From positions 139,587 through 203,586 of the forward strand of contig CANRMP010000001.1 of NCBI GenBank assembly GCA_947631765.1: 64,000 nucleotides of DNA, read 5' to 3'. The DNA is from an uncultured Clostridia bacterium (lineage in GTDB: Bacteria > Bacillota > Clostridia > Oscillospirales > CAG-272). The notes below the pieces were generated by a model. The model was not told the DNA's origin. It searched no databases and was given only the letters and a program-made list of their open reading frames with translations. Numbering within the stretch: position 1 is the first letter of the stretch; the number at the start of each line of letters is the position of its first letter. A program made the translations under genes and the position numbers. This document shows positions 10,636 through 56,329 of the stretch, one piece after another.

Positions 10636-10875
10636 TTAGTCTAAGGAAAAGATATTCGAAAAAACAAAATTAAGAATGAAAACCGCGGCAAGCAGTGCAA
10701 GAGAAGCGCCGATTAATGCGATCAAAGTGACTAAAAATCTTTTTCGTCTTACCTTATTTTCTTTCGGAGTTGCAAGGAAAAGAATCAGAAAAACAACAGA
10801 TGGAACGATTAGAATAATCGACGCCACATCATCGTGATAGCAGAGTAAAATATCAGCATAATTAACACTTCTCAA
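10636..10875 (-). CDS. Small hypothetical membrane protein (2 TM)
   Basis: 79 aa with two clear hydrophobic helices separated by KENKVRRKR. I recognise no family. Confidence 0.4.
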   Translation of the reverse strand: MRSVNYADILLCYHDDVASIILIVPSVVFLILFLATPKENKVRRKRFLVTLIALIGASLALLAAVFILNFVFSNIFSLD

Positions 10876-11002
10876 ATATTTTCTATTTACATTTTATCTT
10901 AATACAGCGATTTGTCAAGACTTTTGTGCTGTTTCTTTTTGTTTTTTTATGATTTTTTATTATCTTTGCATTTTTTCATTATCTTTTTTATTATTTTTGT
11001 TT

Positions 11003-13156
11003 TTATTTTTCCGGTTTGCGCATGGTAAGAGCTATGCGTTTTTTCTCGATATCAACGCTCAGCACCCAAACGGTGACGATGTCGCCGACGCTCAGTATGT
11101 CGGAGGGGTGATTTACCCTCTTTTTGCTTATTTGAGAGATATGAACAAGTCCGTCCTGATGTACGCCTATATCGACAAACGCGCCGAAATCGACCACATT
11201 TCGAACCGTGCCCTTAAGCTCCATACCGGGAGTGAGACTTTCAATTCCGAGCACGTCCGAGCGAAGCATGGGAGGCGGAAGCTCGTCGCGTGGGTCTCTT
11301 CCGGGCTTTGAGAGCTCTTTTACAATGTCAAGCAGAGTCGGAACGCCGATGCCGAGCTTTTCTGAAAGCTTTTCCGCGCCCTTTTCCTCAATAATTTCGT
11401 AAAGCCTTGCGGAGCCCTTGCCCGACACTTCCTTGTCGCCAAGCCCGCACTCTTTAAGCAGAGCCTCGGCGGCGCTGTAGCTTTCGGGATGCACGGAGGT
11501 GTTGTCAAGCAGATTTTCGCTTTCGGGAACTCTCATAAAGCCGGCGCATTGCAAGAACGCCTTCGGTCCGAGCTTCGGGACTCTTTTAAGCTCTTCTCTT
11601 GACTCAAAACAGCCGTTTTCCTCACGGTAGGTCACAATATTTTTGGCGACTGTGGAGTTAATTCCGGCAACGCGGGAAAGAAGCGGCGCGGAGGCGGTGT
11701 TTATATCGACTCCTACCGAGTTGACGCAGTCCTCCACCACCCCGTCAAGCGCTTCGGAAAGCTGATTTTGAGGCATGTCGTGCTGATACTGACCGACTCC
11801 TATGGCCTTGGGGTCGATTTTGACAAGCTCCGCCAGAGGGTCTTGAAGTCTTCTTGCAATTGAAACGGCGCTTCGTAGGTTTACGTCAAATTCGGGAAAT
11901 TCCTCTGCGGCAAGCTTTGAGGCGGAGTATACCGAGGCTCCCGCCTCGCTCACCACCATGTATTTAACCTCGGGAAAATCCTTTATGACGTCAGCCGCAA
12001 AGACCTCGGTCTCGTGTGACGCCGTCCCGTTTCCTATGGCGATTATCTGCACCTTGTATTTTTTTATCCAAGCTGCGATAAAGGCTTTTGCCTGCTCGAT
12101 TTTATTAAAGGGAGGGACAGGATAAATGACCCCGGTGTCAAGCACCTTGCCGGTTTCGTCAACCACCGCCGTTTTACAGCCCATTCTGTATCCCGGGTCA
12201 AGTCCGAGAACAATTTTTCCCTTAACGGGTGCCTGCATAAGCAGCTGGCGCAGGTTTTTGGCAAACAGCTTTATGGCGTCGGTGTCTGCCTTTTCGGTCA
12301 GCATATTTCTTATCTCGCGTTCAATGGACGGGAAAATAAGACGGCCGTACGCGTCCTCTGCGGCAAGGCGAATGACGTCGGCGCAGGGCGAGCTTTCGTT
12401 TTTTAGGTGAACCCCAAGGATTATGTTCATCGCCTTAATCGCGTCAAAATCAATGGAGACCTTTAAAATATCCTCTCTTTCGCCGCGGTTAATAGCAAGA
12501 GTTCTGTGACCGGCAACCTTGTTTAAAGGCTCGGTGTATTCCTTGTAGGTCTCGTATACTCCGAGATTTTCGCAATTGCCCCTTGAGGTGAGATTGCCGT
12601 TCATATAGCATATGTATCTCAGCCTTTTTCTTATATCCGCGTCATCCGATATCATCTCGGCTATTATATCCATGGCGCCCTGAAGCGCTTCCTCCGCGCT
12701 GTTTACGCCGAGCTCTTCATTGATAAAGTCGGCTGCCATTTCGAGCGGAGAAGGGCAGGAGGAGGGCTGCTCGTATATCATATTTGCCAGACCTTCAAGA
12801 CCTTTTGCCTTTGCCACCGAGGCTCTTGTTTTGCGTTTTGGTCTGTAGGGGCGGTATATATCGTCGATTTCGGTCATTGTCTCGGCGTTTTCAAGAGCCG
12901 CGGCTATTTCCTCGGTCATTGCCCCCTGCTCGCTTATAGAGTTAAAAACCTTTTCGCGGTTTTCGTTGAGATTTCTTAAATAGGTGAGCCTTTCGGAAAG
13001 CTCGCGCAGAACCTGGTCGTCAAGCGAGCCGGTTATCTCCTTGCGGTATCTTGCAATAAACGGGATTGTGTTTCCCTCGTCGATAAGGTTTACGGTTGCC
13101 TCGACTCTGTCGGGCTTTAAATTAAATTCTTGTGAAAGTTTTGAAATAATATCCAT
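11003..13156 (-). CDS. tex: Tex-like transcription accessory protein with C-terminal S1 domain
   Basis: 717 aa. The N-terminal IPFIARYRKE motif, a YqgF/RuvC-like central region, HhH motifs, and a C-terminal S1 domain (GTVRNVVDFGAFVDIGVHQDGLVHIS). Confidence 0.92.
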   Translation of the reverse strand: MDIISKLSQEFNLKPDRVEATVNLIDEGNTIPFIARYRKEITGSLDDQVLRELSERLTYLRNLNENREKVFNSISEQGAMTEEIAAALENAETMTEIDDIYRPYRPKRKTRASVAKAKGLEGLANMIYEQPSSCPSPLEMAADFINEELGVNSAEEALQGAMDIIAEMISDDADIRKRLRYICYMNGNLTSRGNCENLGVYETYKEYTEPLNKVAGHRTLAINRGEREDILKVSIDFDAIKAMNIILGVHLKNESSPCADVIRLAAEDAYGRLIFPSIEREIRNMLTEKADTDAIKLFAKNLRQLLMQAPVKGKIVLGLDPGYRMGCKTAVVDETGKVLDTGVIYPVPPFNKIEQAKAFIAAWIKKYKVQIIAIGNGTASHETEVFAADVIKDFPEVKYMVVSEAGASVYSASKLAAEEFPEFDVNLRSAVSIARRLQDPLAELVKIDPKAIGVGQYQHDMPQNQLSEALDGVVEDCVNSVGVDINTASAPLLSRVAGINSTVAKNIVTYREENGCFESREELKRVPKLGPKAFLQCAGFMRVPESENLLDNTSVHPESYSAAEALLKECGLGDKEVSGKGSARLYEIIEEKGAEKLSEKLGIGVPTLLDIVKELSKPGRDPRDELPPPMLRSDVLGIESLTPGMELKGTVRNVVDFGAFVDIGVHQDGLVHISQISKKRVNHPSDILSVGDIVTVWVLSVDIEKKRIALTMRKPEK

Positions 13157-13299
13157 ATATTTTCCTTATTGTATCAGATTTCCCGCCTATTATAACAAAA
13201 ATTTAAAAAATTTGCAATAGAAGTTATAAAAATATTTTTTCTTGGCATATAATTATTCATCAAAAGTGGGACAATTAACTCTTTCTTAATAAAGTTTAC

Positions 13300-13328
13300 T
13301 TGACAACAAAGATATTATGTGGTAAACT
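13300..13328 (+). promoter_or_regulatory. Candidate sigma-A promoter for the lysozyme/cohesin gene pair
   Basis: TTGACA (13300-13305), a 17-nt spacer, then TAAACT (13323-13328). This leaves a leader of about 165 nt. Confidence 0.45.
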
Positions 13329-13497
13329 TAAAAAGTATAGTTATACCAATAGGTAAAAACAGGTAATACAAAAAACAAGAAGTATAACAGGCAGGACACA
13401 AAAACATAAAAACATGTGGGCATGCGAGGCGGCAAAAAACGCCGCTCCAAGTTCAAGGAAAGGATACTTTCGATATGCGAAAGTAATGGTCTGACTT

Positions 13498-15984
13498 ATG
13501 AAAAGACATGTTATTTGTATCATTGTGATTGCCGTAATATTGCTGATTTTCTGTTCTTTTCCCGCAAGCGCCCTCGAAAGCTCTCTTTCGGGTGTTGAAA
13601 TCACAAAGGAAAAAGACGGGTCGAATGCGACGTCATTTACCGTATATGCAGATCAGTCGATGATAGGAAAGATGAATTTAAGCTCCGAGGGGCTTGCCCT
13701 GCTCAAAAGCTTTGAGGGTTATTCAAAATATCCTTATTCCGACTATTCACGCTGGTCTATAGGATACGGCTCGTATGTGTGCTCCATTGACGACGACCCG
13801 TATGAGATTTACCCCAACGGCATATCCAAAATCGAAGCCGAGGAGCTTCTGATGTCAAAACTCGGAAGTTACATAAAATCGGTCAACAAACTTGCAAGTG
13901 ATTACGGCATCGCGCTAAATCAGAATCAGTTTGACGCTCTTGTAAGCTTCACTTACAATTTAGGCGCAAACATCTGGAAAAGGGACGCATCTGATTTTAC
14001 GGTAAAAAGGCTCCTTATAAGCGGAGAATATACCCCGGAGGAGATGGCGGACGCATTTTATATGTGGCGAAACGCCGGGGGAAAAGAAAACGCTGGGCTT
14101 GCAAAGCGCAGACGGCGCGAGGCGGCGCTTTTTAACTCACAAATCAACGTATCCGACCCCGCAAAGGACGGCTACAGCGTAAAATATTACATTGTCAACA
14201 CAAATCTCCTTACCGTGAGGAGTGAGGAGGATACCTCAAGCTCATCTCTCGGCTCGATAAGAAAAAATAACGTTATCCCTATTCTGTATACCAACGAGGC
14301 GGGGAGCCTCGGATTTACCACCTACGCCGCTTATTTCGGCTGGGTATCGATGAAAAATCTCGTGCCTCTTCCGGAAAACTCTGCCATTTCAGTGGCAGGT
14401 GAAGACGATATCGACGAACAGGGAATATTCTACACCTTTGACGAAAATAATATGACCGCCATGGTGGGAGATAACGGAGAAGCCAAGAACAACTCCAAAT
14501 ATGACGGAACGTACAGCGGGTACGTGTATCTCACAAAATATATTTTCCGTTCGGGCAAGGTATACACGCTGACTGCAATAGGTGAAAACGCGTTTACCGA
14601 ATGCTCGACTTTAAAGAAAATTTATATTCCCGCAAGCGTCACGCATATTGCAGACGGCGCCTTCGACCTTTCGGGGCTCGGTGATATTTACTATCCCGGC
14701 GGAAGCTATGCGGAGGAATACGCGAAAAGCAGTCCTTTTAAGGGCACAAACTACAATTGCAGAGCCTCTCACACATACGGCGCATGGAAGATTGTCGATT
14801 GCGGTAACGACACTACACCCCATTACGAGGAGAGCGTGTGTTCTGTTTGCGGGGAGGTAAGGCAGAGAACGGTTATTTCGATATACGTTTCCTCTGTGCC
14901 TGACAAGACCGAATATTATCAGGGAGACAGCTTTGATGTTACGGGCATAAAGGTATCGGCAAAATTCGACGACGGCTCGGACACCGATATCACCTCCTTT
15001 GTAAAATACAGCGGCTTTGACAGCTCAAAGCTCGGGAACAAGGAAATTAAGGTTAAATACGGATCCTTTGATACAAGCTTTACAATAAGAGTGAATAAAA
15101 AGACTCTTGTCGGGATATCGATATCAAAAACCCCGAAAAAGACCACTTTTATCGAGGGAATACCCGTCGATTACAGCGGTCTTGAGGTGCTTGCGCATTA
15201 CGACAACAATTCAAGCGAGGTTATAAAGGAATACGATATTTCGGAGTGTGATATAAACCTTGTCGGAAAACAAACCGTAACCGTCACATATAACGGCTTC
15301 AAGGCGTCTTTTGCAGTAACCATTAAAGCAAAATCGGTAAAGAGCGTCTCAATTGTTAGCTCTCCGTATAAAACCGAATATTACTGCGGCGAAAGCTTTG
15401 ACTTTGACGGGCTTACAATGCACGTTATATACGATAACGGTACCGAAGAGACGGTCGAAGAGGGATTTAGCGTTACAGGATTTAACAACAATACGCCCGG
15501 AGAAAAAAAGGTTCGCTTGTATTTCGGTGGAAAGTACAGCAATATAAAGGTACTTGTAATTCTTAACCGCTTTGTCAGCGACATCTACAAAATCACAAAG
15601 GATAACAAGTGCCTTGTCGGCAAAAACACAACGGTCGGCGCCTTTGTTTCGGCTTTTGAGGCTTCGGACAGAATTGAGATAGTCGGGGCAGACGGAAAAG
15701 CGCTTCCAAAACAAAGCCTTGTCGGCAGCGGATGCCGTGCGATACTCTGGTATAACGAGGATAAGCTTGCCGAGTTTATCGTCTCTGTAAAAGGAGATCT
15801 TAACGGAGACGGGTGCGTGTCCTTTAGCGATTATCTGATGATGAATCGCCATTTCACCTCTCAAATCAAAGACGTTAACACGATGATATACGATATAAAC
15901 AGCGACGGACAGTTTACTCTTGCCGATCTTGTCTGCCTGCTGTCTGAGATCAAAATCAACAACAAGGATGAGCAGTCCGCATAA
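13498..15984 (+). CDS. Secreted multidomain muramidase: GH24-like lysozyme, SH3b-like, BspA-type LRR, 3 Ig-like repeats, C-terminal dockerin
   Basis: Signal peptide ending PASA. Lysozyme block LALLKSFEGYSKYPY...SIGYGS...NQNQFDALVSFTYNLG. LRR block LTAIGENAFTECSTLKKIYIPASVTHIADGAF. Three repeats of about 75 aa (YYQGDSFDVTGIKV, FIEGIPVDYSGLEV, YYCGESFDFDGLTM). Dockerin duplicate Ca-loops DLNGDGCVSFSD and DINSDGQFTLAD. Confidence 0.8.
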   Translation: MKRHVICIIVIAVILLIFCSFPASALESSLSGVEITKEKDGSNATSFTVYADQSMIGKMNLSSEGLALLKSFEGYSKYPYSDYSRWSIGYGSYVCSIDDDPYEIYPNGISKIEAEELLMSKLGSYIKSVNKLASDYGIALNQNQFDALVSFTYNLGANIWKRDASDFTVKRLLISGEYTPEEMADAFYMWRNAGGKENAGLAKRRRREAALFNSQINVSDPAKDGYSVKYYIVNTNLLTVRSEEDTSSSSLGSIRKNNVIPILYTNEAGSLGFTTYAAYFGWVSMKNLVPLPENSAISVAGEDDIDEQGIFYTFDENNMTAMVGDNGEAKNNSKYDGTYSGYVYLTKYIFRSGKVYTLTAIGENAFTECSTLKKIYIPASVTHIADGAFDLSGLGDIYYPGGSYAEEYAKSSPFKGTNYNCRASHTYGAWKIVDCGNDTTPHYEESVCSVCGEVRQRTVISIYVSSVPDKTEYYQGDSFDVTGIKVSAKFDDGSDTDITSFVKYSGFDSSKLGNKEIKVKYGSFDTSFTIRVNKKTLVGISISKTPKKTTFIEGIPVDYSGLEVLAHYDNNSSEVIKEYDISECDINLVGKQTVTVTYNGFKASFAVTIKAKSVKSVSIVSSPYKTEYYCGESFDFDGLTMHVIYDNGTEETVEEGFSVTGFNNNTPGEKKVRLYFGGKYSNIKVLVILNRFVSDIYKITKDNKCLVGKNTTVGAFVSAFEASDRIEIVGADGKALPKQSLVGSGCRAILWYNEDKLAEFIVSVKGDLNGDGCVSFSDYLMMNRHFTSQIKDVNTMIYDINSDGQFTLADLVCLLSEIKINNKDEQSA

Positions 15985-15999
15985 AAGGAAAAAAACAAA

Positions 16000-17439
16000 A
16001 TGAATTTATCTTCCGAAAAAACAAAGCTGCTTGAAAGAGCGATAGTTGTCATATTGGCTTGTCTTATACTTTTCGGCGCCTTTTACACTTCGTACGCGGA
16101 AGGGGAAAACCCCGACGCGGCGCCGCAGGTCGGCGAAAATGAAGACAGCGGCGGAAATGAGCCTGAAGAAGAGACGGGGGATATTAAAATATCCTTCCCC
16201 GAGAAAATATGGCCGGGCTCGGAATTTGAGATAACGCTGTCGGCAAACCTTCCTCTTTCATACGCCGTTTTCGGAAGCATAAGCTTTGAGAGCGACGCTC
16301 TGAATTTCATCGAGTGCCGCGGGGCAGTCCCCGAATGGACTCTGACCCACACGGAGGACGGGTCGACAATAACCTATCTCTGTGTTGACACGCTGCTCTC
16401 CCATAAGGCGGATGGTATGACAGATATTTTGGTGATAAAATTTGCCGCCCGCTCGGATATTCCCGCCGATTCTCTTATCACTTTTAATGTATCCAACCTG
16501 ACGGCGTCCGACGGTGCGGGCGAGACTGTTATTGAAGGCGGAGAGTTTTCAAAAAACCTTTCCCCGGCGCTTAGTCACCCAGCAGGGCTTCAAAGCCTGT
16601 TTGTCAGGGGAAAAAGAGGGGAAGAGTCGGTTGACTATAACGTGGTTCCCGAATTTGACCCGGCGGTTACCGATTATACCGTTTATGTCGATGATATCGG
16701 CGATGAGTTTGAAATGGTATATACCTGCGACGAGTACTCAAGCGCTATTGAAAACAGAATATATACCGACGGCAAGCTCAGCTCATGCGAGCTTAATGTA
16801 ACGTCGGAGGACGGCTTTGAGGGGAGAAAATACATAATATCTTTTTCGGAAATTCAACCTCCCGCCAAAGACGAGAACGAATCAAACGCAAAAATAAAGG
16901 AAATAAGCCTTTCAAACGGTCTGCTCTCACCGAAGTTTTCAGCCTCGGCTTTTGAGTACACGGTTTACATAACCTCAAGTATTGACAGCGTTATAATATC
17001 CGCCCTGACGGAAAGTCCGGACGCCGTTGCCTCAAATTTGACTCTTGATATCAAAAGCGGGGAGAGGCAGGTGTTGACTTGCACCGCAAAGGACGGAACT
17101 GCTTTGGAATATTATTTTACCGTCAAGGTGATAAGCGAGAGGGCTTACGCTGAGCTTGCGGGAGATAATGTTACCGATACTCCAAACTTAAGCTTAAGTT
17201 TGCCGATAATCCTTATTATTCTTTTTGCCGTCGCTTTCACGGGCTTTTTTGTGGGCTTTATAATTGCCGCCGCGGTTAAGAAAAATTCGGGCAAGAGAAC
17301 AGGAAAAAGCAGTAGAGACCTAAAGCTATACGGCAAAAACAGCCTGTACAAAACCGACGCCGCGCCGCTTGACCTTGAGAAAAAGGAAGAAGCCCCTGTC
17401 GACAAGTCGGCAGACAAGGACAAACCGGAGGAGCAATAA
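16000..17439 (+). CDS. Membrane-anchored surface protein: cohesin-like domain, two cadherin-like beta-sandwich repeats, C-terminal TM and charged tail
   Basis: N-terminal hydrophobic segment and an acidic linker. A roughly 130-aa beta-rich module (IKISFPEKIWPGSEFEITL...ILVIKFAARSDIPADSLITFNVSNLTASDG) follows a cohesin-like pattern. Two repeats contain the P.F.P....Y.V.V motif (VVPEFDPAVTDYTVYV, LLSPKFSASAFEYTVYI). TM helix LPIILIILFAVAFTGFFVGFIIAAAV, then a K/E/D-rich tail. Confidence 0.6.
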   Translation: MNLSSEKTKLLERAIVVILACLILFGAFYTSYAEGENPDAAPQVGENEDSGGNEPEEETGDIKISFPEKIWPGSEFEITLSANLPLSYAVFGSISFESDALNFIECRGAVPEWTLTHTEDGSTITYLCVDTLLSHKADGMTDILVIKFAARSDIPADSLITFNVSNLTASDGAGETVIEGGEFSKNLSPALSHPAGLQSLFVRGKRGEESVDYNVVPEFDPAVTDYTVYVDDIGDEFEMVYTCDEYSSAIENRIYTDGKLSSCELNVTSEDGFEGRKYIISFSEIQPPAKDENESNAKIKEISLSNGLLSPKFSASAFEYTVYITSSIDSVIISALTESPDAVASNLTLDIKSGERQVLTCTAKDGTALEYYFTVKVISERAYAELAGDNVTDTPNLSLSLPIILIILFAVAFTGFFVGFIIAAAVKKNSGKRTGKSSRDLKLYGKNSLYKTDAAPLDLEKKEEAPVDKSADKDKPEEQ

Positions 17440-17460
17440 CTTTTGCGAAGGATAAAATAA

Positions 17461-18312
17461 ATGAGCAAAATGACCAAGGAAGAATATCAGGGCGAATTTG
17501 CCTTGATGGTCGATGAGCTGAGCTGTAAGGAAGGCATAAAATACGACGCGCTTTGCAGAATATCCGAAAGCTTTTTAAGACCCTATATCGCAAACCGGTG
17601 CTACAGATATTCAAGCTTAAGGCAGTCGGGTATTGAGGACGATATATTTCACGACGTACTTATAAGACTTATAAAATCCTGTATTGACCAGTTTCTCTAC
17701 AAGGACGGTACGCAAAACTACGATCCCGAGGGCTTTTTAAGGTGGATATATACGGTTGCCCGCAACGTCATAATCGATACCGCCAAGGACTACGGCGCAA
17801 AAAGCTGTACCGAGGTCGGCATTGTAAACGATGACGGAGAGATAATTGACATTCCGAGCGTTGATGACCCCTTTATGTCAATAGAAGCCGCCGACACCTT
17901 AAAGGATTGCCTTAGAACCGTACTTTCTCTTGATTCTTCGCTCCACATTGTCTTTACATGGATAATAAGAGCCATACTTCTTGCAAGATGCGACCTTTCA
18001 CTTGAGGAAAAATATATTGCGGATACCAAAATAAATGCGCTTGTGGTAAAAACCTTTAAGGATTTGACACTCAATGAGATTTACGCCGTGATACTGCTTG
18101 AGGCAAAAAAGCTTGAATGGCTTAGTATCAGCGAGGCGGACAACAAAAGAATCACCCGCATTCTTGAATCTGAGAATACAAACGGAAAATCAATAGGCAA
18201 CACGGTATATTCGGAATTTTTTATGAAAAAAGGGGCGAACGCCACAATAAGCGATTGGGTGAACCGCACAAATATGCGCATAATAAAAGCGGCAAACGCC
18301 GAAGTGCTTTGA
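17461..18312 (+). CDS. Divergent sigma-70 family (ECF-like) sigma factor
   Basis: Region-2-like string DDIFHDVLIRLIK...FLRWIYTVARNVIIDTAKD. The C-terminal ISDWVNRTNMRIIKA resembles region 4.2. At 283 aa it is longer than a classical ECF sigma and has a non-canonical middle part. Confidence 0.55.
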   Translation: MSKMTKEEYQGEFALMVDELSCKEGIKYDALCRISESFLRPYIANRCYRYSSLRQSGIEDDIFHDVLIRLIKSCIDQFLYKDGTQNYDPEGFLRWIYTVARNVIIDTAKDYGAKSCTEVGIVNDDGEIIDIPSVDDPFMSIEAADTLKDCLRTVLSLDSSLHIVFTWIIRAILLARCDLSLEEKYIADTKINALVVKTFKDLTLNEIYAVILLEAKKLEWLSISEADNKRITRILESENTNGKSIGNTVYSEFFMKKGANATISDWVNRTNMRIIKAANAEVL

Positions 18313-48878: not shown

Positions 48879-49763
48879 TTAGTTAATTCCGAGGATTGCC
48901 GCAAGGCGGTTCTTTTGTGCGGCGCTTTTATACGCTCCCTCATAATCGCCGATGGTTTTACAGCTGTACTCAAGGTCGGAATAAATAGAGTACCTGAACG
49001 GCGCGTCGCTTAACCCCTCGTCAAACGACTCGACTATTTCGGAAAGCAGTGTGCGAGCGCGGGCATGGTTGGAGGACGCCATTGACAGTCTTGCGTGGAT
49101 GTGTTTTTTTAGCAGAGGATTTGAAATTTTCATCTGGTCAAAGACCTGCGCCGCAAGCTCGTGCTTGCCGATGCGGATAAGCCGAAGAAGAAAGTCGTAT
49201 ATTAAAGCCTCGTGCGCTTTCTGCGCAAAACCGTTTTCGGGCAGAGTGACGTTTTCGGTAAATTTGTGCTGCTTTACCCGCCGACACTTATTTATTTCAT
49301 AATCTATCGCCTCGGACAGTGCACATTCGACCGGAATATATGAGAGGTATTCCTTCGCTTTTTCAAAAAGAGAGCAGGCGGCGGTAAAGTCTCCCGCCTC
49401 ATACATTTTTTTGCCCTCAAGGAGCGATGAGGAGGCAAAATAGAGCGCAAGCTCAATGTCAGGTGTTTCGCACTTTTTCGAAAGCTCAAGACAACCCGAA
49501 AAATCCTTGTCAAAATAGAGCTTTCGCACCTTGTCAATTATTCGCAGCTTTATAAATGGCGTCGGGTCGTCTGTCTCGGAAATAAAATATCCTGCGTCTA
49601 TATCAAGCTTTTTTGCAATGTAATCGAGCGTTGCAAGCGAGGGAAGCGCGGAGCCGTTTTCAATTTTGCTCAGCATATTTCTCGTTATGAACTCACCGCA
49701 CAAATCTTTTTGCGTAAAGCCCCTGTCAAGGCGTACTTTTTTTATTTTTTCGCCTGTTGTCAT
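48879..49763 (-). CDS. XRE-type HTH regulator with a C-terminal TPR-like helical domain (RNPP/Rgg-like architecture)
   Basis: N-terminal IKKVRLDRGFTQKDLCGEFITRNMLSKIENGSALPSLATLDYIAKKL, followed by about 220 aa of helical repeats. Confidence 0.8.
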   Translation of the reverse strand: MTTGEKIKKVRLDRGFTQKDLCGEFITRNMLSKIENGSALPSLATLDYIAKKLDIDAGYFISETDDPTPFIKLRIIDKVRKLYFDKDFSGCLELSKKCETPDIELALYFASSSLLEGKKMYEAGDFTAACSLFEKAKEYLSYIPVECALSEAIDYEINKCRRVKQHKFTENVTLPENGFAQKAHEALIYDFLLRLIRIGKHELAAQVFDQMKISNPLLKKHIHARLSMASSNHARARTLLSEIVESFDEGLSDAPFRYSIYSDLEYSCKTIGDYEGAYKSAAQKNRLAAILGIN

Positions 49764-50296
49764 AAAGAAGAATCCTTTGCGAAAATGCTGTTTCCGTTGC
49801 TGTCAATACCCACGTAAAGCGGAAAATCCTTGATTTCCATACGCTTTACCGATTCACAGCCAAGCTCCTCAAAGGCGATAACCTCGGCAGATTTAATGCA
49901 GGAGGCGGCAAGAGCTCCCGCGCCTCCGACAGCGCACAGATAAATACCTCTGTTACGCACAATAGCCTTGTAAACCTCCTTTGACCTGTCCCCCTTGCCT
50001 ATCATGCATTTAAGCCCGAGATCAATCAGGCGCGGCGCGTAAGGGTCCATACGCGACGAGGTGGTGGGACCGCAGGAACCCGTCGGCATATTTGCTTTTG
50101 CGGGGGTCGGACCGGCGTAATATATTGTGCTGTTTTTTATTTCAAAGGGAAGAGGCTTGCCACTGTCAAGCAGTGCGAAAAATCGCTTGTGTGCGGCGTC
50201 TCTTGCCGTATATATTGTGCCGGAAAGGTATATAAGCTCTCCCGCCTTCAATGTTCCGACCCAGCTTTCTATATCGGATGTGTTAAGTTTTTTCAT
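49760..50296 (-). CDS. Fe-S type hydro-lyase beta subunit (class I fumarate hydratase / L-tartrate dehydratase C-terminal domain)
   Basis: 178 aa. Motifs LSGTIYTARDAAHKR, YYAGPTP, GSCGPTTSSRMD, MIGKGDRS and LCAVGGAGAL. Confidence 0.88.
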   Translation of the reverse strand: MKKLNTSDIESWVGTLKAGELIYLSGTIYTARDAAHKRFFALLDSGKPLPFEIKNSTIYYAGPTPAKANMPTGSCGPTTSSRMDPYAPRLIDLGLKCMIGKGDRSKEVYKAIVRNRGIYLCAVGGAGALAASCIKSAEVIAFEELGCESVKRMEIKDFPLYVGIDSNGNSIFAKDSSL

Positions 50297-50481
50297 TGCG
50301 GTCTCCCATTAAGTACTATATTTATTTGTATTGTATCTCACAAGTGTTAATAAATTGTGAATTTGAGAGCAAACAATTGATAATATGACAAAATTGTGAT
50401 ACTATAAACAAGGTATAATTAATTTTATAAAATAAATATAGTATTTAAAAGGGTATTTTGAGAAGAAAGGAGTGAAACGTT

Positions 50482-52692
50482 CTGAGGGATAACAGCAAAA
50501 TAAGCGATGAGATTTTAGAGCTTCTGAGAGCCAAAGGCATAGAACAAAGCGACATACTTTCCTTTGCCTGTCTTGACCTTGACGACAGAGAAATATATAG
50601 TGACGGCTATCTGATTTTAACCGCAAAAAAGCTTATAAGGTTTTTCGGCTATGAATATACCGAATATCCGGTCGAAAAAATCGAAAAAACCGACGTGGAG
50701 GAGCTTATTTCCTGCTGTCGCGCTTTTGCGCGCATTGACGGGAGGGATGTGCTTCTTTCCTACTTTTCGTTTTCCGCAAAGAACGACGTGTATAAGGTGG
50801 CGCACACCTTTGAGAAGCTCAAGAACGGGGAAGAATGCAGGGATTTTCCGGATGAGGCTTATTGCCCCAAATGCGGAAGAAGATACGCCGACGCTTCAAG
50901 AAAATTCTGCCCGAACTGTATGGACAGAGGGAAAATAATCGTCCGAATGAGCGGATTTTTCTTAAAATACAAGTTTAAAATGCTGATAATACTCGCAATG
51001 CTGGTGCTTATGAGCGCGCTTGCGGCAATAACCCCTTACATAACCTCGGGCTTTTACTTTGACGAGGTGCTCAGCAAGGAAGGCTCCTTTTACGGAATGA
51101 TCACCTTTGTCCTTGCCATAATAATATCGCTTCGGGTTTTCAGACTGCTTGTCAATCTGATTAACGATATAGTCAGCACCCGCATATCCGCGCAGATAGT
51201 GAACGATATCAAAAAGACTATCTTCAAGGCGATAGAGCGCCTTTCGGTCAGCTTTTTCACCTCGCGCTCTACAGGCGGACTTATGAATCAGGTCAACAAC
51301 GATTCAAACAGAATCTATTGGTTCTTTGTGGACGGTCTTCCGGTTATTATAATAAATGCGGTGCAGTTTATAACCGTGTTTATTATCATGATGTGCATAA
51401 ACCCGCTTCTTACCTTGCTTTCGCTTTTGATGGTGCCGGTTGTGGCAATTCTCATAGGCAAGCTTTTCAGGCACAGTCAGAAGCTCCATTTCAGGCGGTA
51501 TTCAAAGGAAAGGTCGATGAACGGTCTGCTTTCTGACCTTCTTACCGGTATTCGGGTTGTCAAAACCTTCTCAAGAGAAAAGAACGAAAGCGCCCGCTTC
51601 GACAGGGCAAGCACCTCTCTTGCAAGAGAGAGCAAGAGAGTTTCAACCTTCGGCTCCACCGCCTTTCCGATGGTCAACCAGCTTGTGTATATCGGAGTCG
51701 TCGTGGTTTGGGGCTTTGGCGGATTTATGATAATAGACGGAAGCTTCGGGCTTACATACGGAATGCTTTTGACCTTTATCGCATATATCGGCATGATATA
51801 CGACCCGCTTTACACCTTTGTCAATATGATGCAGTCAGCTTCCGAAAGCTTTAGCGCAATGAGCCGACTTTTTGAAATAATGGACGCCATGCCCGAGGTC
51901 AAGGAGTCCGAAAACCCCGTCCATAAAGCCGAGTTTGAGGGACGGGTCACCTTTCGGGACGTGAAATTCTCATACGTGAAAAATCGCCGCATCCTTGACG
52001 GTATAAGCTTTGACATCGAGCCCGGGGGAGCCATTGGGATAGTCGGTCATACGGGAGCGGGAAAAAGTACCATTGCAAACCTGCTTATGCGCCTTTACGA
52101 CGTCGAAGAGGGCGAAATACTCATCGACGGGGTAAATATAAAGGATTACGCCTTTGAGGACCTGCACCGCAATATTGCTATTGTGTCTCAGGAAACGTAT
52201 CTGTTTTGCGGTACCATAATGGAAAACATAAAGTACGCCTGCCCGGACGCTACCAAGGAGCAGGTCATGCAGGCGGCAAAGGCGGCGGGAGCACATGACT
52301 TTATCATAAAGCTTCCGGACGCATACGAAACAAAGGTAGGCTTTGGATACAAGGACCTTTCGGGAGGTGAAAGACAGCGCCTGTCAATTGCAAGAGCATT
52401 GCTCAGAGACCCCAAAATTTTGATTCTTGACGAGGCGACCGCCGCAATGGATACCCAGACCGAGCGAATGATACAGGACACTCTTGACAGCCTTGCAAAG
52501 TCGCGCACCACAATAACCATAGCTCACCGACTTTCAACGCTGAGAAGCGCGGATTATCTTATCGTTATAAAGGACAAAAAAATGCCCGAGTTCGGCACTC
52601 ACACCGAGCTTATAAAGAAAAAGGGAATATACTACACACTTTATATGCTTCAGCTTGAAGCGCTGAAAAACGCCGGTATCGCCGAAAACTGA
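50482..52692 (+). CDS. ABC exporter half-transporter (TMD-NBD) with an N-terminal zinc-ribbon domain of about 150 aa; start codon uncertain
   Basis: NBD motifs GHTGAGKST, LSGGERQR, ILILDEATAAMD and IAHRL, with a 6-TM exporter TMD. The N-domain carries CPKCGRRY...CPNCMD. The frame is open from 50476 and the homology to the paralogue starts near 50500. However, the first ATG/GTG/TTG in frame is the GTG at 50695. A CTG at 50482 lies 9 nt after the SD AAAGGAG. Confidence 0.7.
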   Translation: MRDNSKISDEILELLRAKGIEQSDILSFACLDLDDREIYSDGYLILTAKKLIRFFGYEYTEYPVEKIEKTDVEELISCCRAFARIDGRDVLLSYFSFSAKNDVYKVAHTFEKLKNGEECRDFPDEAYCPKCGRRYADASRKFCPNCMDRGKIIVRMSGFFLKYKFKMLIILAMLVLMSALAAITPYITSGFYFDEVLSKEGSFYGMITFVLAIIISLRVFRLLVNLINDIVSTRISAQIVNDIKKTIFKAIERLSVSFFTSRSTGGLMNQVNNDSNRIYWFFVDGLPVIIINAVQFITVFIIMMCINPLLTLLSLLMVPVVAILIGKLFRHSQKLHFRRYSKERSMNGLLSDLLTGIRVVKTFSREKNESARFDRASTSLARESKRVSTFGSTAFPMVNQLVYIGVVVVWGFGGFMIIDGSFGLTYGMLLTFIAYIGMIYDPLYTFVNMMQSASESFSAMSRLFEIMDAMPEVKESENPVHKAEFEGRVTFRDVKFSYVKNRRILDGISFDIEPGGAIGIVGHTGAGKSTIANLLMRLYDVEEGEILIDGVNIKDYAFEDLHRNIAIVSQETYLFCGTIMENIKYACPDATKEQVMQAAKAAGAHDFIIKLPDAYETKVGFGYKDLSGGERQRLSIARALLRDPKILILDEATAAMDTQTERMIQDTLDSLAKSRTTITIAHRLSTLRSADYLIVIKDKKMPEFGTHTELIKKKGIYYTLYMLQLEALKNAGIAEN

Positions 52693-52725
52693 GCCGGGTC
52701 TAAACGTTAAAGAAAGGCAGAAAAC

Positions 52726-53247
52726 ATGGCAGTAACAATAAACAACGTTGTAAAGATTATATACCTGACAAAAGAAAATGCCGCCTTTTACAAAAGCGGG
52801 GATTTTATAGGTATGCGATATACCGACGAAGAGGGCAATGAGAGCGACTGCGGCAGAGTGTATTTTCACAGACTTTTCCCCTATACCGAGCTTTGGACAA
52901 ACATTTCGGTTATGGATAAGGACTCGCAGGAGTTCGGAATCATTGCAAATATCGATGATTTTGAAAAGGAAGATTCCGAGCTTATAAGAAAAGAGCTTCT
53001 TGCAAAATATTTTGTACCGAAAATAAAATCAATCCTTACGCTTAAAGAAAAGCTCGGCTATTCAAGCTGGACGGTTGACACCGACGCTGGAGTCGTCACC
53101 TTTACGGTAAGGGATACCTTCCGCTCGATGATAAGAATAGGGGAAAGCCGCATATACGTTATTGACAATGACGGCAACCGATATGAAATCGAGAATTACA
53201 ACAAGCTTGATAAAAAATCGTATAAGAAAATAGAGCTGTATATCTGA
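52726..53247 (+). CDS. DUF1854-like small cytoplasmic protein sandwiched between the two ABC genes
   Basis: 173 aa. Strings FHRLFPYT, FGIIANIDDF, KYFVPKIKSI, WTVDTDAGVVTF and VIDNDGNRYEIENYNKLDKKSYKKIE match my recollection of this family. Not verified by HMM. Confidence 0.6.
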   Translation: MAVTINNVVKIIYLTKENAAFYKSGDFIGMRYTDEEGNESDCGRVYFHRLFPYTELWTNISVMDKDSQEFGIIANIDDFEKEDSELIRKELLAKYFVPKIKSILTLKEKLGYSSWTVDTDAGVVTFTVRDTFRSMIRIGESRIYVIDNDGNRYEIENYNKLDKKSYKKIELYI

Positions 53248-53294
53248 TATACCGTAAAACGGGACAAAAAACAGCTTTTGCGGCGGGAGATACT

Positions 53295-55496
53295 GTGACT
53301 GAATACGAATATAAAATTTTTGAAAAAATAAAACATTTGATACCGGATAAAGCCGAAGAGCTGCCCGAGGCAGTTCTTACATACGACATATCCGGCGAAA
53401 AAATAATAAGCGACCAAATGGCTGCCGTGTTTTATAAGGATTCATATTTCCTTGTTGAAAACGGCAGGGTCTCGCTTTGTGAAAAAATATTGCCTGATGA
53501 CAGGTTTGAAGCCCGTATGCTTATGGGGTGCGTTCAGCTTGAGCACAAGAGAGAGGAGAAGGCAAGGCTTGTCTGCCGCTCCACCCTAAAGCACAAAACC
53601 GAGTTTTTTGTGATAACGGCAAGACTTTGCGCAATACTTGAAGGCAGAGAGTACAAAGAAGACCCCTCCCAAGCCATGCGCTTTTGCGTCAAATGCAAAA
53701 GACCGCTCTCAAGGGACATCGAAGGGGACAGATGTCTGCGATGTATGGACAAGAGCAAGTATGTAAAGCGGCTATGGGAAATAATGAAGGGCAGCAGGGC
53801 GTACCTTTTGCTGTCGATAGTGCTGTTTTTTGTGGTAACCGGAATTAATCTTATCGCCCCGCAGATTCAAAGAGTGCTTGTGGACGATTATATAACCCCG
53901 AGAAACAAGGATATTCTCCCCTTTGTGTTCATCGTTATTTCGATGTTCGGCATCAATTTGCTTTCAAGACTTATCGAAATACTTCGAAGCAGGATTCTTA
54001 TAAAGGCTAACACCGACGTTATAACAAGACTGCGCTCCACCGTTTTTGAAAAGGTGCAAAAGCTTTCGGTCGCAAGCGTTTCAAGGCGCACCGCTGGAAA
54101 CATAATGCACAGGGTCACGGGGGACACAACCACCATTCAGAATTTTATGACAAATGAAATTCCCGGCTTTATTCAGCAAGCGCTGATGTTTATTGCGGTG
54201 GCAATAATTCTTTTTGCCTATGACTGGAAGCTTGCCCTTCTGATAATTCTGCCGATGCCGCTTGCAATTGTCGCTCACAGGCTTTTCAGGAGTAGAACAA
54301 GAAAGATGTATCGGCGCCAGTGGCAGGTGGGAGACCAGGTGCAGACTCTGCTTCACGATATCTTTTCCGGAATCAGAGTCGTCAAATCCTTCGGAATGGA
54401 GTCTTATGAAAACCGGCGCTTTGAAAAGGAAACCGATGAAGAATGCAGAATAAGAATAAGAAACGAGCGCTTTTTCGCAATTTTTTCGCCGGTCGTCAAT
54501 TTCCTTATGGGAATGGGCGAATTTGTCCTGCTTTACTATGTGGGAAATAAGGTGATAGGCGGCGAAATGTCGCTTGGCGAAATGGCGGTATTTTCAACAT
54601 ACGTCAGCCTAATCTACGGACCTATGCGAATTTTTGCCAATATCACAAGACAGCTGACAATGCTTATGGTGGCAGTCGCGCGGGTTTTCGAGATAATTGA
54701 CGAAAAGATAGACGTTGACGACGCTCTGGGCGCTGTCAATGTTAAAATCAAGGGAAATATAGAGCTTTGTCACGTGTCGTTCGGCTACGACGAGTCAAAG
54801 GAGGTCCTTCACGACATATCTCTTTCGATAAAGCCCGGAGAGATGGTGGGAATTGTCGGAAGGTCAGGAGTGGGCAAGTCGACGCTTATAAACCTTGTCA
54901 TGCGAATGTATGACGTGACCGACGGCAAAATACTTATCGACGGGCACGATATTAAAGACATTTCTCAGGAATGTCTGCGCTCGCAAATAGGCGCGGTTCT
55001 TCAGGAAACCTTCCTTTTCAGCGGTTCGATATACGATAATATCGCCTACGCAAAGCCGGATGCGGACAGGGAAGAGGTAATACGCGCTGCAAAGCTTGCA
55101 GGCGCACATTCGTTTATTATTAAGCTTCCCGACGCCTACAACACTTATGTCGGCGAGAGGGGATATACGCTTTCGGGCGGGGAAAGGCAGAGAGTTTCAA
55201 TTGCAAGAGCCTTACTGCACGATCCGAGAATACTCATTTTGGACGAGGCGACAGCCTCTCTTGACACCGAAACGGAAAAGCAGATACAGGACGCGCTTGC
55301 GAACCTCATAGCCGACAGAACCACAATTGCAATTGCGCACAGGCTCTCAACGCTGAGAAACGCGACAAGGATAGTCGTGCTTGACGGCGCGGGTATTGCC
55401 GAGGTGGGTACTCACAACGAGCTTATGAGCAAAAAGGGAATATATTACGGACTTGTCATGGCGCAAAGACAGATGTCGAAAATGCGTACCGAGTAA
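53295..55496 (+). CDS. ABC exporter half-transporter (TMD-NBD) with an N-terminal zinc-ribbon domain, paralogue of 50482..52692
   Basis: 733 aa with a GTG start after GGGAGA. The N-domain has CVKCKRPL...CLRCMD. NBD motifs GRSGVGKST, LSGGERQR, ILILDEATASLD and IAHRL. Confidence 0.88.
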   Translation: MTEYEYKIFEKIKHLIPDKAEELPEAVLTYDISGEKIISDQMAAVFYKDSYFLVENGRVSLCEKILPDDRFEARMLMGCVQLEHKREEKARLVCRSTLKHKTEFFVITARLCAILEGREYKEDPSQAMRFCVKCKRPLSRDIEGDRCLRCMDKSKYVKRLWEIMKGSRAYLLLSIVLFFVVTGINLIAPQIQRVLVDDYITPRNKDILPFVFIVISMFGINLLSRLIEILRSRILIKANTDVITRLRSTVFEKVQKLSVASVSRRTAGNIMHRVTGDTTTIQNFMTNEIPGFIQQALMFIAVAIILFAYDWKLALLIILPMPLAIVAHRLFRSRTRKMYRRQWQVGDQVQTLLHDIFSGIRVVKSFGMESYENRRFEKETDEECRIRIRNERFFAIFSPVVNFLMGMGEFVLLYYVGNKVIGGEMSLGEMAVFSTYVSLIYGPMRIFANITRQLTMLMVAVARVFEIIDEKIDVDDALGAVNVKIKGNIELCHVSFGYDESKEVLHDISLSIKPGEMVGIVGRSGVGKSTLINLVMRMYDVTDGKILIDGHDIKDISQECLRSQIGAVLQETFLFSGSIYDNIAYAKPDADREEVIRAAKLAGAHSFIIKLPDAYNTYVGERGYTLSGGERQRVSIARALLHDPRILILDEATASLDTETEKQIQDALANLIADRTTIAIAHRLSTLRNATRIVVLDGAGIAEVGTHNELMSKKGIYYGLVMAQRQMSKMRTE

Positions 55497-55505: not shown

Positions 55506-56267
55506 ATGAAGACTGCAAAAGACGCCGAGAGGTTTGAGAGGGCGTATAACGCCGTAATGTGGTCGCCCGATAACCCCGAGGGCCAAAAGATCGGAAATCT
55601 CGGAGAAAAGGCGCTTCACGCCGTGTTAAAGTACTATTTTGAGCCTGACGGGACAAAGCACGAGATAAAGGTCGGACCCTTTTTTGCCGACGCAGCCTCG
55701 GAGCGAAAAATCATTGAAATTCAGACAAAAAATTTATACGCTCTGCGAAAAAAGCTTGACTTTTTGGTTATATCTTATAAGGTCCTGCTGGTACACCCGA
55801 TAGCGGAAAATAAAACCGTGTGTTGGGTCGACCCTTTAAGCGGAGATATTAAAAGCCGAAAGAAATCCCCGAAAAAGGGCAGTATATACGACGCTCTGCC
55901 CGAGCTGTACGCTATAGAGGATTTTATCGGCGAGGAAAATTTCACCTTGTGTATTATGACGGTCGACGTCGATGAATACCGCCTTCTTGACGGATACGGT
56001 AAAGACAAAAAGAAACGCGCCACAAAATACGAGCGTGTCCCGACTTCAATTAATTCCGAAATATATTTTAAGGACAAGAGAGATTTTTACATGCTAATTC
56101 CGCCCTGCCTTAAAGAGCGCTTCACAATTGAGGATTTTAACCGCGCCGTCAGGATGCGGGGCATTGCCGCAAGCCGCGCGCTAAAATTTCTTTTGGATAT
56201 CGGACTTGTGAATTTTATCGGCAAAGAGGGCAGAAAAAATATTTATGAAATAGCAAAATCCGACTGA
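55506..56267 (+). CDS. Hypothetical protein, PD-(D/E)XK nuclease-like N-domain (CoiA-like EIQ motif) with a C-terminal winged-helix-like region
   Basis: GEKALHAVLKYYFEP...FFADAASERKIIEIQTKN fits an H...D...E.Q.K restriction-endonuclease-fold pattern. The C-terminal LKFLLDIGLVNFIGKEGRKNIYEI looks like a wHTH. It starts 10 nt after the ABC stop. Confidence 0.4.
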   Translation: MKTAKDAERFERAYNAVMWSPDNPEGQKIGNLGEKALHAVLKYYFEPDGTKHEIKVGPFFADAASERKIIEIQTKNLYALRKKLDFLVISYKVLLVHPIAENKTVCWVDPLSGDIKSRKKSPKKGSIYDALPELYAIEDFIGEENFTLCIMTVDVDEYRLLDGYGKDKKKRATKYERVPTSINSEIYFKDKRDFYMLIPPCLKERFTIEDFNRAVRMRGIAASRALKFLLDIGLVNFIGKEGRKNIYEIAKSD

Positions 56268-56329
56268 AAAATCTCGCCGCGGCAATAAGCCGCGGCAGGA
56301 AGAAACAACTTTATTTATGTAATTTCACT

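What the first reader, a model, noticed from the sequence alone, without database searches (positions are those of the whole stretch)
50476..55496. Twin ABC exporter genes, each with an N-terminal zinc-ribbon/PH-like cytoplasmic domain, bracketing a DUF1854-like gene
Both exporters are TMD-NBD half-transporters with fully canonical Walker A, signature, Walker B-Glu and H-loop motifs, so both ATP sites should be active. Each carries an extra N-terminal module of about 150-170 aa. These modules are homologous to each other and end in a C-x2-C...C-x2-C-MD zinc ribbon (CPKCGRRY...CPNCMD and CVKCKRPL...CLRCMD) just before TM1. Between the two genes lies a 173-aa soluble DUF1854-like protein. Cytoplasmic zinc-ribbon domains on exporters are uncommon. 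Together with a dedicated soluble partner, they suggest a substrate-delivery or regulatory mechanism that I cannot match to a characterised system.
Basis: partly seen in the sequence, partly recalled or inferred. Interest (0 to 1): 0.65.

Follow-up and report, generated by a model that had tools for sequence, protein, structure and literature searches.

The report
Heterodimeric ABC exporter with DUF1854 partner
This is a real, widely conserved three-gene operon of gut Clostridia: two paralogous ABC exporter halves, each with a PH-like plus zinc-ribbon cytoplasmic head, and a small DUF1854 partner protein; it belongs to an already annotated but biochemically unstudied family first linked to cyanophycin-like polymer export, yet here it occurs without any cyanophycin synthetase, so its cargo is unknown.

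Summary
At 50482-55496 lie ABC-A (736 aa), a DUF1854 protein (173 aa) and ABC-B (733 aa). Both ABC proteins have canonical ATPase motifs. Each has a ~160-aa N-terminal module ending in an invariant CxxC...CxxC motif just before TM1. An AlphaFold model (pLDDT 90) shows the module is a PH-like fold followed by the Cys4 segment.

It is not an unmatched system. The best NCBIfam hits are the "cyanophycin metabolism-associated" ABC transporter and DUF1854 models, though below their cut-offs. Price et al. proposed DUF1854 as a subunit of an ABC exporter cofit with cphA/cphA'. A Ralstonia cphA-linked ABC protein carries the same N-module (hhalign 97.6%).

New here:
- The heterodimeric A-DUF1854-B form dominates in Clostridia (56 clean triads in 87 loci). 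A and B fall on opposite sides of one well-supported branch.
- It is independent of cphA, which is absent from this genome and from 34 of 38 DUF1854-positive class genomes.
- Natural ABC-DUF1854 fusions exist.
- No neighbour is broadly conserved.

ABC-A lacks a canonical start. A CTG at 50482 aligns with a relative's ATG and is identical in contigs from four runs of two studies.

Verdict: new variant of a known, uncharacterised kind. The cargo is unknown. Interest is moderate.

The parts
50355..50433 (+). AT-rich intergenic region with several sigma-70-like promoter matches upstream of ABC-A
   Evidence: Consensus scan only. This is weak evidence.
50466..50472 (+). Shine-Dalgarno-like AAAGGAG
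   Evidence: Read from the sequence. The same GAAAGGAGTG precedes the ATG of the closest relative at the same spacing.
50482..52692 (+). ABC-A half-transporter, 736 aa, probable CTG start
   Evidence: The frame is open from 50476, with no canonical start before 50695. The CTG aligns with the relative's ATG and is unchanged in four runs. Pfam gives PF00664 and PF00005. NF052233 scores 529 bits against a cut-off of 880.
50482..50862 (+). ABC-A N-terminal PH-like domain
   Evidence: The AF2 model from alignment A3 has pLDDT 90.1 and shows a helix, seven strands and a C-terminal helix. Foldseek top hits are all PH/PTB domains.
50863..50919 (+). ABC-A Cys4 zinc-ribbon motif CPKC-x11-CPNC
   Evidence: The four Cys are invariant in A1 and A3. 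Pfam and PDB give only weak zinc-ribbon hits.
50983..51807 (+). ABC-A transmembrane domain (PF00664)
   Evidence: E 3.6e-34.
51994..52443 (+). ABC-A nucleotide-binding domain (PF00005), canonical motifs
52726..53247 (+). DUF1854 protein, 173 aa, soluble
   Evidence: PF08909, E 2.2e-35. NF052234 scores 78.5 bits against a cut-off of 150. The AF2 model has pLDDT 91.5 and shows two strand-rich halves, each ending in a helix. There is no significant PDB match by sequence or fold.
53295..55496 (+). ABC-B half-transporter, 733 aa, GTG start
   Evidence: All 56 B-position proteins form one clade.
53685..53744 (+). ABC-B Cys4 zinc-ribbon motif CVKC-x12-CLRC
53805..54626 (+). ABC-B transmembrane domain (PF00664)
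   Evidence: E 3.8e-47.
54807..55256 (+). ABC-B nucleotide-binding domain (PF00005), canonical motifs
55506..56267 (+). 253-aa protein of unknown function, 9 nt after ABC-B, probably co-transcribed
   Evidence: No Pfam, NCBIfam or significant PDB hit. Two homologues are listed as PF26351 DUF8091 in the contig gene tables. A cluster homologue lies in 6 of the 87 loci analysed; in five of them it is immediately or closely downstream of a triad.
56275..56297 (.). GC-rich hairpin between the operon and the convergent amidase gene; likely terminator
   Evidence: 9 pairs, 8 of them G-C. It was scored on the minus strand. Use on the plus strand is inferred.

Best explanation
The locus is one operon. 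It encodes a heterodimeric type-IV-fold (MsbA/Sav1866-like) ABC exporter, ABC-A plus ABC-B, and a cytoplasmic accessory subunit, DUF1854. A co-transcribed 253-aa protein of unknown role probably follows.

Each half-transporter starts with a cytoplasmic PH-like domain tied to TM1 through a Cys4 zinc ribbon. The two heads would therefore sit at the membrane-cytosol interface beside the transmembrane domains. DUF1854 binds the cytoplasmic side of the transporter.

I infer that the PH/Zn heads and DUF1854 together form a cytosolic recognition or gating platform. It would select or load a cytoplasmically made cargo into the exporter, by analogy with the N-terminal C39/CLD domains of PCAT/HlyB and the C-terminal cargo-binding domain of Wzt. 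Transport would be driven by two active ATP sites.

The system is a paralogous branch of the cphA-associated ABC/DUF1854 exporter family. Its cargo is not a CphA product, because cphA is absent. The cargo is unknown; I guess an envelope-related or peptide-like molecule.

Shown: the gene and domain architecture, the folds (predicted), conservation, the A/B paralogy, co-occurrence, the fusions and cphA independence. Inferred: heterodimer formation, zinc binding, where DUF1854 docks, the direction of transport and the nature of the cargo. The confidence given applies to the architecture and to the model of an exporter complex with an accessory subunit. For any specific cargo class my confidence is 0.2 or less.
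For: Architecture and motifs.

N-module:
- PH-like fold.
- Invariant Cys4.
- The N-domain profile finds 1314 representative clusters. In 149 of the 150 listed hits the best stretch begins within the first 75 residues; full-length hits are 724-972 aa.

Triad conservation:
- 56 clean A-DUF1854-B triads in 87 loci.
- More than 541 genomic places encode a relative of the DUF1854 protein.
- B forms a single clade (99 SH-aLRT) and all A rows lie on the other side of that branch, with parallel sub-clades. This fits one old duplication and co-inheritance.

Link between DUF1854 and the ABC proteins:
- The same 21 of 31 related genomes have both the N-domain and DUF1854.
- Natural fusions of N-domain, TMD, NBD and DUF1854 exist: P0138, P0170 and P0200.
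- Price et al. report cofitness of DUF1854 with the ABC transporter and cphA/cphA'.

Same head in a cphA-linked Ralstonia ABC protein: hhalign 97.6%, E 4.6e-12.

cphA independence:
- None in this 98%-complete genome. The best hit there is a DapF-MurE fusion.
- None in any of the 18 sampled congeners.
- In 201 class genomes, 38 have DUF1854, 39 have cphA and only 4 have both, against 7.4 expected. The two are never adjacent.

Operon structure: gaps of 33, 47 and 9 nt, with a hairpin only after the fourth gene.
Against: - There is no experimental or multimer-model evidence for the A/B/DUF1854 complex or its stoichiometry.
- The role of the PH/Zn head as a cargo or adaptor dock rests on analogy only.
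- DUF1854 has no significant structural neighbour and no detectable similarity to the N-domain, so its function is not constrained.
- No broadly conserved neighbour gene points to a cargo.
- Zinc binding is inferred from the motif. The Pfam zinc-ribbon hits are below their cut-offs.
- The CTG start implies weak or unusual initiation of ABC-A. If it is not used, ABC-A would lack half of its PH domain.
Confidence: 0.6

Rival explanations
1. It exports a cyanophycin-like amino-acid polymer, as proposed for the beta-proteobacterial ABC/DUF1854 pair, and the NCBIfam name applies directly.
For: The best NCBIfam hits are NF052233 and NF052234. The N-domain architecture is shared with a cphA-linked Ralstonia ABC protein. 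Price et al. report cofitness with cphA/cphA'.
Against: The scores are far below the equivalog cut-offs: 529 and 543 against 880, and 78.5 against 150. There is no cphA in this genome or in any of the 18 sampled congeners. In the class sample, 34 of 38 DUF1854-positive genomes lack cphA, and the two are never adjacent.
Confidence: 0.07
2. It is a housekeeping envelope-lipid or cell-wall-precursor flippase (MsbA-like). The PH/Zn heads and DUF1854 act as regulators that couple export to envelope status.
For: MsbA models are the second-best NCBIfam hits, at 427-451 bits. Cell-wall genes recur loosely nearby. These are polysaccharide deacetylases (window, L009, L011, L014), Amidase_3 (window), PBP5 (L013), a dcw cluster (L015), and VanY next to the pair-type locus. 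Price et al. suggested a cell-wall role.
Against: The MsbA scores are below the cut-off of 602 and reflect the shared exporter core. The cell-wall neighbours are not conserved across the 87 loci. The system is present in only 19% of class genomes, so it is not essential housekeeping.
Confidence: 0.2
3. It is a generic multidrug or peptide efflux pump. DUF1854 and the N-domains are lineage-specific decorations without a role in cargo selection.
For: The heterodimeric exporter fold and the canonical sites resemble SmdAB- and Tet(46)-like heterodimers. No cargo gene is linked.
Against: The N-domain, the Cys4 motif and DUF1854 are strictly co-conserved over deep divergence, from Bacillota to Proteobacteria and Poribacteria. 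DUF1854 has fused to the ABC protein repeatedly. This argues for an integral mechanistic role.
Confidence: 0.15
4. ABC-A is a decaying gene: it has lost its start codon, and the triad is being inactivated in this strain.
For: There is no ATG, GTG or TTG between the TGA at 50473 and 50695.
Against: The frame is open over all 736 codons, with no stops. The N-terminal 70 residues are conserved with relatives. The CTG sits at the exact position of the relative's ATG, with a good SD and a 9-nt spacer. The same sequence is found in four runs from two studies.
Confidence: 0.08

Closest known systems
Cyanophycin-synthetase-associated ABC transporter plus DUF1854 protein (NCBIfam NF052233 and NF052234; Price et al. 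DUF1854 proposal; example Ralstonia wenshanensis p56D2, KOL96_03340 and KOL96_03345)
   Same: Both have a PH-like plus Cys4 N-terminal head, an exporter TMD, an NBD and an adjacent DUF1854 gene. The full-length HMM aligns from the N-domain onward.
   Different: The known system has one ABC gene (presumably a homodimer) next to divergent cphA/cphA'. Here there are two co-evolving paralogues flanking DUF1854, there is no cphA in the genome, and the scores are below the equivalog cut-offs.
Pair-type ABC plus DUF1854 locus of Clostridia, including a second locus in this same genome (G000:C5, locus L108)
   Same: The same N-domain, Cys4 motif and DUF1854 partner.
   Different: It has a single ABC gene of 750-840 aa and a shorter DUF1854 of 162 aa. 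It forms a separate clade. It is often followed by a c-di-AMP receptor gene.
PCAT and HlyB-type ABC exporters with N-terminal C39 peptidase or C39-like domains
   Same: They are half-transporters of the same exporter fold, with an extra N-terminal cytoplasmic domain before TM1 that recognises cargo. This is stated from established knowledge of those families.
   Different: The N-domain here is PH-like plus a zinc ribbon, not a C39 fold. No leader-peptide substrate gene, membrane-fusion protein or outer-membrane partner is present.
Wzt of O-antigen ABC transporters (C-terminal cargo-binding beta-sandwich on the NBD)
   Same: A beta-rich accessory module is attached to the C-terminus of the NBD. 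The natural ABC-DUF1854 fusions have the same topology.
   Different: Wzt belongs to a different ABC class (type V, with a separate TMD). No sequence or fold similarity was detected.
Bacterial PH domains (for example PDB 3dcx of the DUF1696 family, and 3b77)
   Same: The fold is similar (Foldseek probability 1.0, TM-score by target up to 0.68).
   Different: There is no sequence-level match to any Pfam PH family. Those proteins are not fused to ABC exporters or to a zinc ribbon.

Membership tests
ABC exporter half-transporter (PF00664 TMD plus PF00005 NBD; MsbA/Sav1866-type fold) | ABC_membrane domain followed by an ABC_tran domain on one chain | tested here: met
   both proteins. PF00664 E 3.6e-34 and 3.8e-47; PF00005 E 3.3e-33 and 1.3e-35.
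ABC exporter half-transporter (PF00664 TMD plus PF00005 NBD; MsbA/Sav1866-type fold) | Canonical Walker A, Q-loop, LSGGQ/E signature, Walker B-Glu and H-loop | tested here: met
   Motifs are GHTGAGKS / GRSGVGKS, VSQE / VLQE, LSGGE, ILILDE, and IAHR in both.
NF052233 cyanophycin metabolism-associated ABC transporter (equivalog) | Score at or above the curated cut-off of 880 bits | tested here: not met
   529.1 bits (A) and 542.6 bits (B). It is the top hit, but the score fits a paralogue.
NF052233 cyanophycin metabolism-associated ABC transporter (equivalog) | Genomic association with cphA | tested here: not met
   no cphA in this genome or in the 18 sampled congeners; no association across 201 class genomes.
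NF052233 cyanophycin metabolism-associated ABC transporter (equivalog) | N-terminal PH-like plus Cys4 module before the TMD | tested here: met
   the HMM aligns from profile position 17; hhalign 97.6% to the Ralstonia cphA-linked ABC N-domain.
DUF1854 (PF08909) | Score above the Pfam gathering threshold of 26.8 bits | tested here: met
   121.8 bits, residues 45-170.
NF052234 cyanophycin metabolism-associated DUF1854 protein (equivalog) | Score at or above 150 bits | tested here: not met
   78.5 bits.
PH-like fold | Seven-stranded beta-sandwich capped by a C-terminal helix | tested here: met
   AF2 pLDDT 90.1, strands at 26-94 and a helix at 96-113; the top 50 Foldseek PDB hits are almost all PH, PTB or PH-like domains (best E 9.6e-4). 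This is a predicted structure, not an experimental one.
Zinc ribbon (Cys4) | Two CxxC knuckles with conserved spacing; metal binding | tested here: inconclusive
   The motif is invariant. Pfam zinc-ribbon hits score 16 bits against cut-offs of 25-27. PDB profile hits to zinc-ribbon proteins have E of 0.01 or worse. Metal binding cannot be tested here.
PCAT / type I secretion ABC (C39 or C39-like N-domain) | Peptidase C39 or C39-like domain at the N-terminus | tested here: not met
   no C39 hit; the HlyB and bacteriocin models align only from about residue 160 onward.

The most novel reading that the evidence does not exclude
The A-DUF1854-B triad is a distinct, cphA-independent exporter class of gut Clostridia. 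Two PH/zinc-ribbon heads and one two-lobed DUF1854 subunit would form an asymmetric cytosolic loading or gating device of a kind not yet seen in ABC exporters. It would handle a so far unknown, possibly envelope- or signalling-related, cargo. The sister pair-type system travels with a c-di-AMP receptor gene.
Probability: 0.3. Interest if true: 0.7.

Novelty: new variant of a known kind. Interest (0 to 1): 0.45.

Why it matters
ABC exporters with dedicated cytosolic accessory subunits are rare. The best understood examples, the PCAT C39 domains and the Wzt cargo-binding domain, showed how cargo is selected.

This family is large. The N-domain profile finds 1314 clusters at 50% identity. DUF1854 is present in about one in five sampled genomes of this class, and more than 541 genomic places encode a relative. 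No member has a solved structure, a known cargo or any biochemistry.

In Clostridia the system is decoupled from cphA. The database name "cyanophycin metabolism-associated" should therefore not be transferred to these genes. The whole family may have a more general function than polymer export.

The heterodimeric triad with a single DUF1854 gene is a natural asymmetric version. It should be a good target for AlphaFold-Multimer or cryo-EM work.

Tried and rejected
1. Homology between DUF1854 and the N-domain, or an internal duplication in DUF1854: hhalign found nothing (probability below 2%).
2. Structural neighbours of DUF1854: Foldseek against the PDB gave no hit at E <= 0.001, and TM-scores were below 0.3. 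A sequence search of the PDB gave only chance hits.
3. cphA elsewhere in the genome: the best hit is a DapF-MurE fusion and the others are Mur or ATP-grasp enzymes.
4. Word-indexed homologue search with the ABC-B N-domain returned only 2 proteins, because the domain diverges too fast.
5. The search for related loci with the N-domain alignment failed because no conserved 7-10-column stretch exists. The DUF1854 alignment was used instead.
6. Neighbour clustering over 87 loci found no gene family beyond the triad in more than 15 loci. A divergent GH106-like gene occurs in 15 loci, not including the window. The DUF8091-like gene occurs in 6.
7. An assembly error as the cause of the missing start codon is unlikely. 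Contigs of four runs from two studies agree at the start region; the two runs of the second study each differ by a single-base change about 50 nt upstream.
8. The literature library holds only one paper that mentions DUF1854 or PF08909.
9. The 253-aa downstream protein has no Pfam, NCBIfam or significant PDB match.
Full report
**Observation**

The window holds four closely spaced plus-strand genes between 50.4 and 56.3 kb.
- ABC-A is open from 50476 to 52692.
- A 173-aa protein lies at 52726-53247.
- ABC-B lies at 53295-55496.
- A 253-aa ORF lies at 55506-56267.

The gaps between them are 33, 47 and 9 nt. Pfam assigns ABC_membrane plus ABC_tran to both large proteins and DUF1854 (PF08909, E 2.2e-35) to the small one. 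Both NBDs carry canonical Walker A, Q-loop, LSGGE, ILILDE and H-loop motifs.

Both ABC proteins have about 160 residues before TM1, ending in CPKC-x11-CPNC-MD and CVKC-x12-CLRC-MD. The two proteins are 38% identical overall. Their N-modules, compared alone, align with E 4e-5.

**Start codon of ABC-A**

50476 is only the first codon after a TGA, and the first ATG/GTG/TTG in frame is at 50695. Orthologues are 736-738 aa and begin at the equivalent of 50482.

In the closest related genome, the sequence GAAAGGAGTG-N7-ATG aligns base for base with GAAAGGAGTG-N7-CTG in the window. Contigs of four metagenome runs from two studies show no change at the start region; the two runs of the second study each differ by a single base about 50 nt upstream. 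These runs are labelled as rabbit-gut and gut metagenomes.

I read this as a real CTG start at 50482 rather than an assembly error or a dead gene.

**What the parts are**

An AlphaFold2 model of the ABC-A N-module was built on 50 diverse homologues (A3). It has mean pLDDT 90.1 and shows a helix, seven strands and a long C-terminal helix, followed by the Cys4 segment.

Foldseek against the PDB returns almost only PH, PTB and PH-like domains: Sin1 PH, GRK2 PH, CCM2 PTB, Rtt106, and the bacterial PH proteins 3dcx and 3b77. Probability is about 1.0, the best E-value is 9.6e-4, and the TM-score by target reaches 0.68.

The four cysteines are the only invariant columns in both N-domain alignments. 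They are present in 142 of 147 full-length ABC proteins in the DUF1854 loci. Sequence matches to Pfam and PDB zinc ribbons are only weak, so zinc binding is inferred from the motif.

DUF1854 was modelled on 62 homologues, with pLDDT 91.5. It has two strand-rich halves, each ending in a helix. It has no significant PDB neighbour by fold or by sequence. It shows no detectable similarity to the N-domain or between its own halves.

**It belongs to a named family**

The best NCBIfam hit for both ABC proteins is NF052233, "cyanophycin metabolism-associated ABC transporter". The alignment starts inside the N-module. The scores are 529 and 543 bits against a cut-off of 880.

The small protein best matches NF052234, the associated DUF1854 protein, at 78.5 bits against a cut-off of 150.

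The only paper in the library that mentions DUF1854 is Price et al. (bioRxiv 10.1101/072470). They found DUF1854 cofit with an ABC transporter and cphA/cphA' in two beta-proteobacteria. They proposed it as a subunit of an exporter for an amino-acid polymer, and they noted fusions.

On the Ralstonia wenshanensis plasmid record p56D2 (1.8 Mb), the locus reads cphA-cphA' divergent from ABC-DUF1854. The N-terminus of that ABC protein matches my N-domain profile at 97.6% probability (E 4.6e-12) and carries CPTC...CPQC.

The PH-like plus zinc-ribbon head and the DUF1854 partner are therefore hallmarks of the whole family. They are not a peculiarity of this window.

**What is different here**

*Heterodimeric form.* A scan of one genome per species found more than 541 places encoding a DUF1854 relative. 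The 80 best-matching loci that were kept come almost entirely from uncultured gut and rumen Clostridia. In the 87 loci analysed, 56 are clean triads of ABC(N-domain, Zn)-DUF1854-ABC(N-domain, Zn).

In a maximum-likelihood tree of the exporter cores, all 56 B-position proteins form one clade (99 SH-aLRT). All A-position proteins lie on the other side of that branch, with parallel sub-clades. True single-ABC pair-type systems form a separate clade. This fits one old duplication followed by co-inheritance, as expected for an obligate heterodimer.

*Second system in this genome.* The same genome also has a pair-type system on another contig: an 838-aa ABC protein with the same head, plus a 162-aa DUF1854.

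*Independence from cphA.* This 98%-complete genome has no cphA, and its best hit is a DapF-MurE fusion. None of the 18 sampled congeners has cphA, although 17 of them have the system.

In 201 genomes of the class, 38 have DUF1854, 39 have cphA and only 4 have both, against 7.4 expected. The two are never adjacent.

*Self-contained module.* Clustering all neighbours over the 87 loci found nothing conserved beyond the triad. The exceptions are a divergent GH106-like gene in 15 loci (not in the window) and the 253-aa DUF8091-like gene in 6 loci, including the window.

**Evidence that DUF1854 is a physical partner**

The N-domain and DUF1854 occur in exactly the same 21 of 31 related genomes.

Among N-domain hits from a 1.8-billion-protein library, proteins of 935, 948 and 972 aa have the order N-domain, TMD, NBD, DUF1854. 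In these fusions DUF1854 is tethered to the C-terminus of the NBD. In 149 of the 150 listed hits the best stretch begins within the first 75 residues of the protein.

**Mechanism (inferred)**

ABC-A and ABC-B form a heterodimeric exporter with two competent ATP sites. Each PH-like head is held close to TM1 by the zinc ribbon, on the cytoplasmic face. DUF1854 docks on the cytoplasmic side.

Together they would act as a platform that recognises, loads or gates a cytoplasmic cargo. The analogy is to the N-terminal C39/CLD domains of PCAT/HlyB and the C-terminal cargo-binding domain of Wzt, and it rests on established knowledge of those systems.

The cargo cannot be named from this evidence. A CphA product is unlikely. 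Loose recurrence of cell-wall genes near different loci is compatible with an envelope role, but it is not conserved enough to count as evidence. These genes are polysaccharide deacetylases, an amidase, PBP5, a dcw cluster and VanY.

**Verdict**

I classify it as a new variant of a known kind, namely the heterodimeric, cphA-independent branch. Interest is moderate. The family is large, structurally unusual and unstudied, but the architecture itself is already catalogued.

Noticed in passing
window 50472-50484: ABC-A has no ATG, GTG or TTG start. A CTG at 50482, 9 nt after a GGAG, sits exactly where the closest relative has its ATG. The sequence is identical in contigs of four metagenome runs from two studies, so this is probably a genuine CTG-initiated gene.
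   Followed up: yes
G000:C5 about 128.2-131.6 kb (locus L108 7222-10591); also L016, L110, L111: The same genome has a second, pair-type system: an 838-aa ABC protein with the PH/Zn head, plus a 162-aa DUF1854. In 4 of 5 informative pair-type loci, DUF1854 is followed directly by a DarA/PstA-like c-di-AMP receptor gene (PF06153), while the genes further downstream differ. This hints at a link to c-di-AMP signalling.
   Followed up: partly
window 55506-56267: A 253-aa protein starts 9 nt after ABC-B. It has no Pfam, NCBIfam or significant PDB match here. Two homologues are listed as DUF8091 (PF26351) in the contig gene tables. A homologue lies immediately or closely downstream of a triad in five loci: the window, L009, L011, L028 and the more distant Eisenbergiella locus L090. 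A sixth homologue is in L089.
   Followed up: partly
locus L028 (CAVGEY010000007.1), 6738-17830: Two complete triads lie tail to tail, flanking the DUF8091-like gene. Several congeners also carry two or three N-domain ABC genes, so the system is often present in more than one copy.
   Followed up: no
loci L013, L030, L031, L033, L038-L040, L045, L046, L049, L052, L069 and others: A GH106-like (alpha-L-rhamnosidase family) protein of about 800 aa recurs next to the triad in 15 loci. It lies directly and divergently upstream of ABC-A in L030, L031, L040, L045, L046, L049 and L069. It is absent from the window.
   Followed up: partly
G000:C9:50070-52430 (locus L001 376-2736): A 786-aa fusion of diaminopimelate epimerase (DapF) with a MurE-type Mur ligase. 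It turned up as the best, false, cphA candidate.
   Followed up: partly
window 48879-50296 (minus strand): A fumarase C-terminal (beta) subunit gene overlaps an HTH_3 regulator gene, divergent from the ABC operon. The same pair sits beside the triad in L009 and L011, so this looks like local synteny within the genus.
   Followed up: no
control genomes: PF08909 (DUF1854) scores above its cut-off in Sulfolobus acidocaldarius. The domain therefore reaches into Archaea.
   Followed up: no
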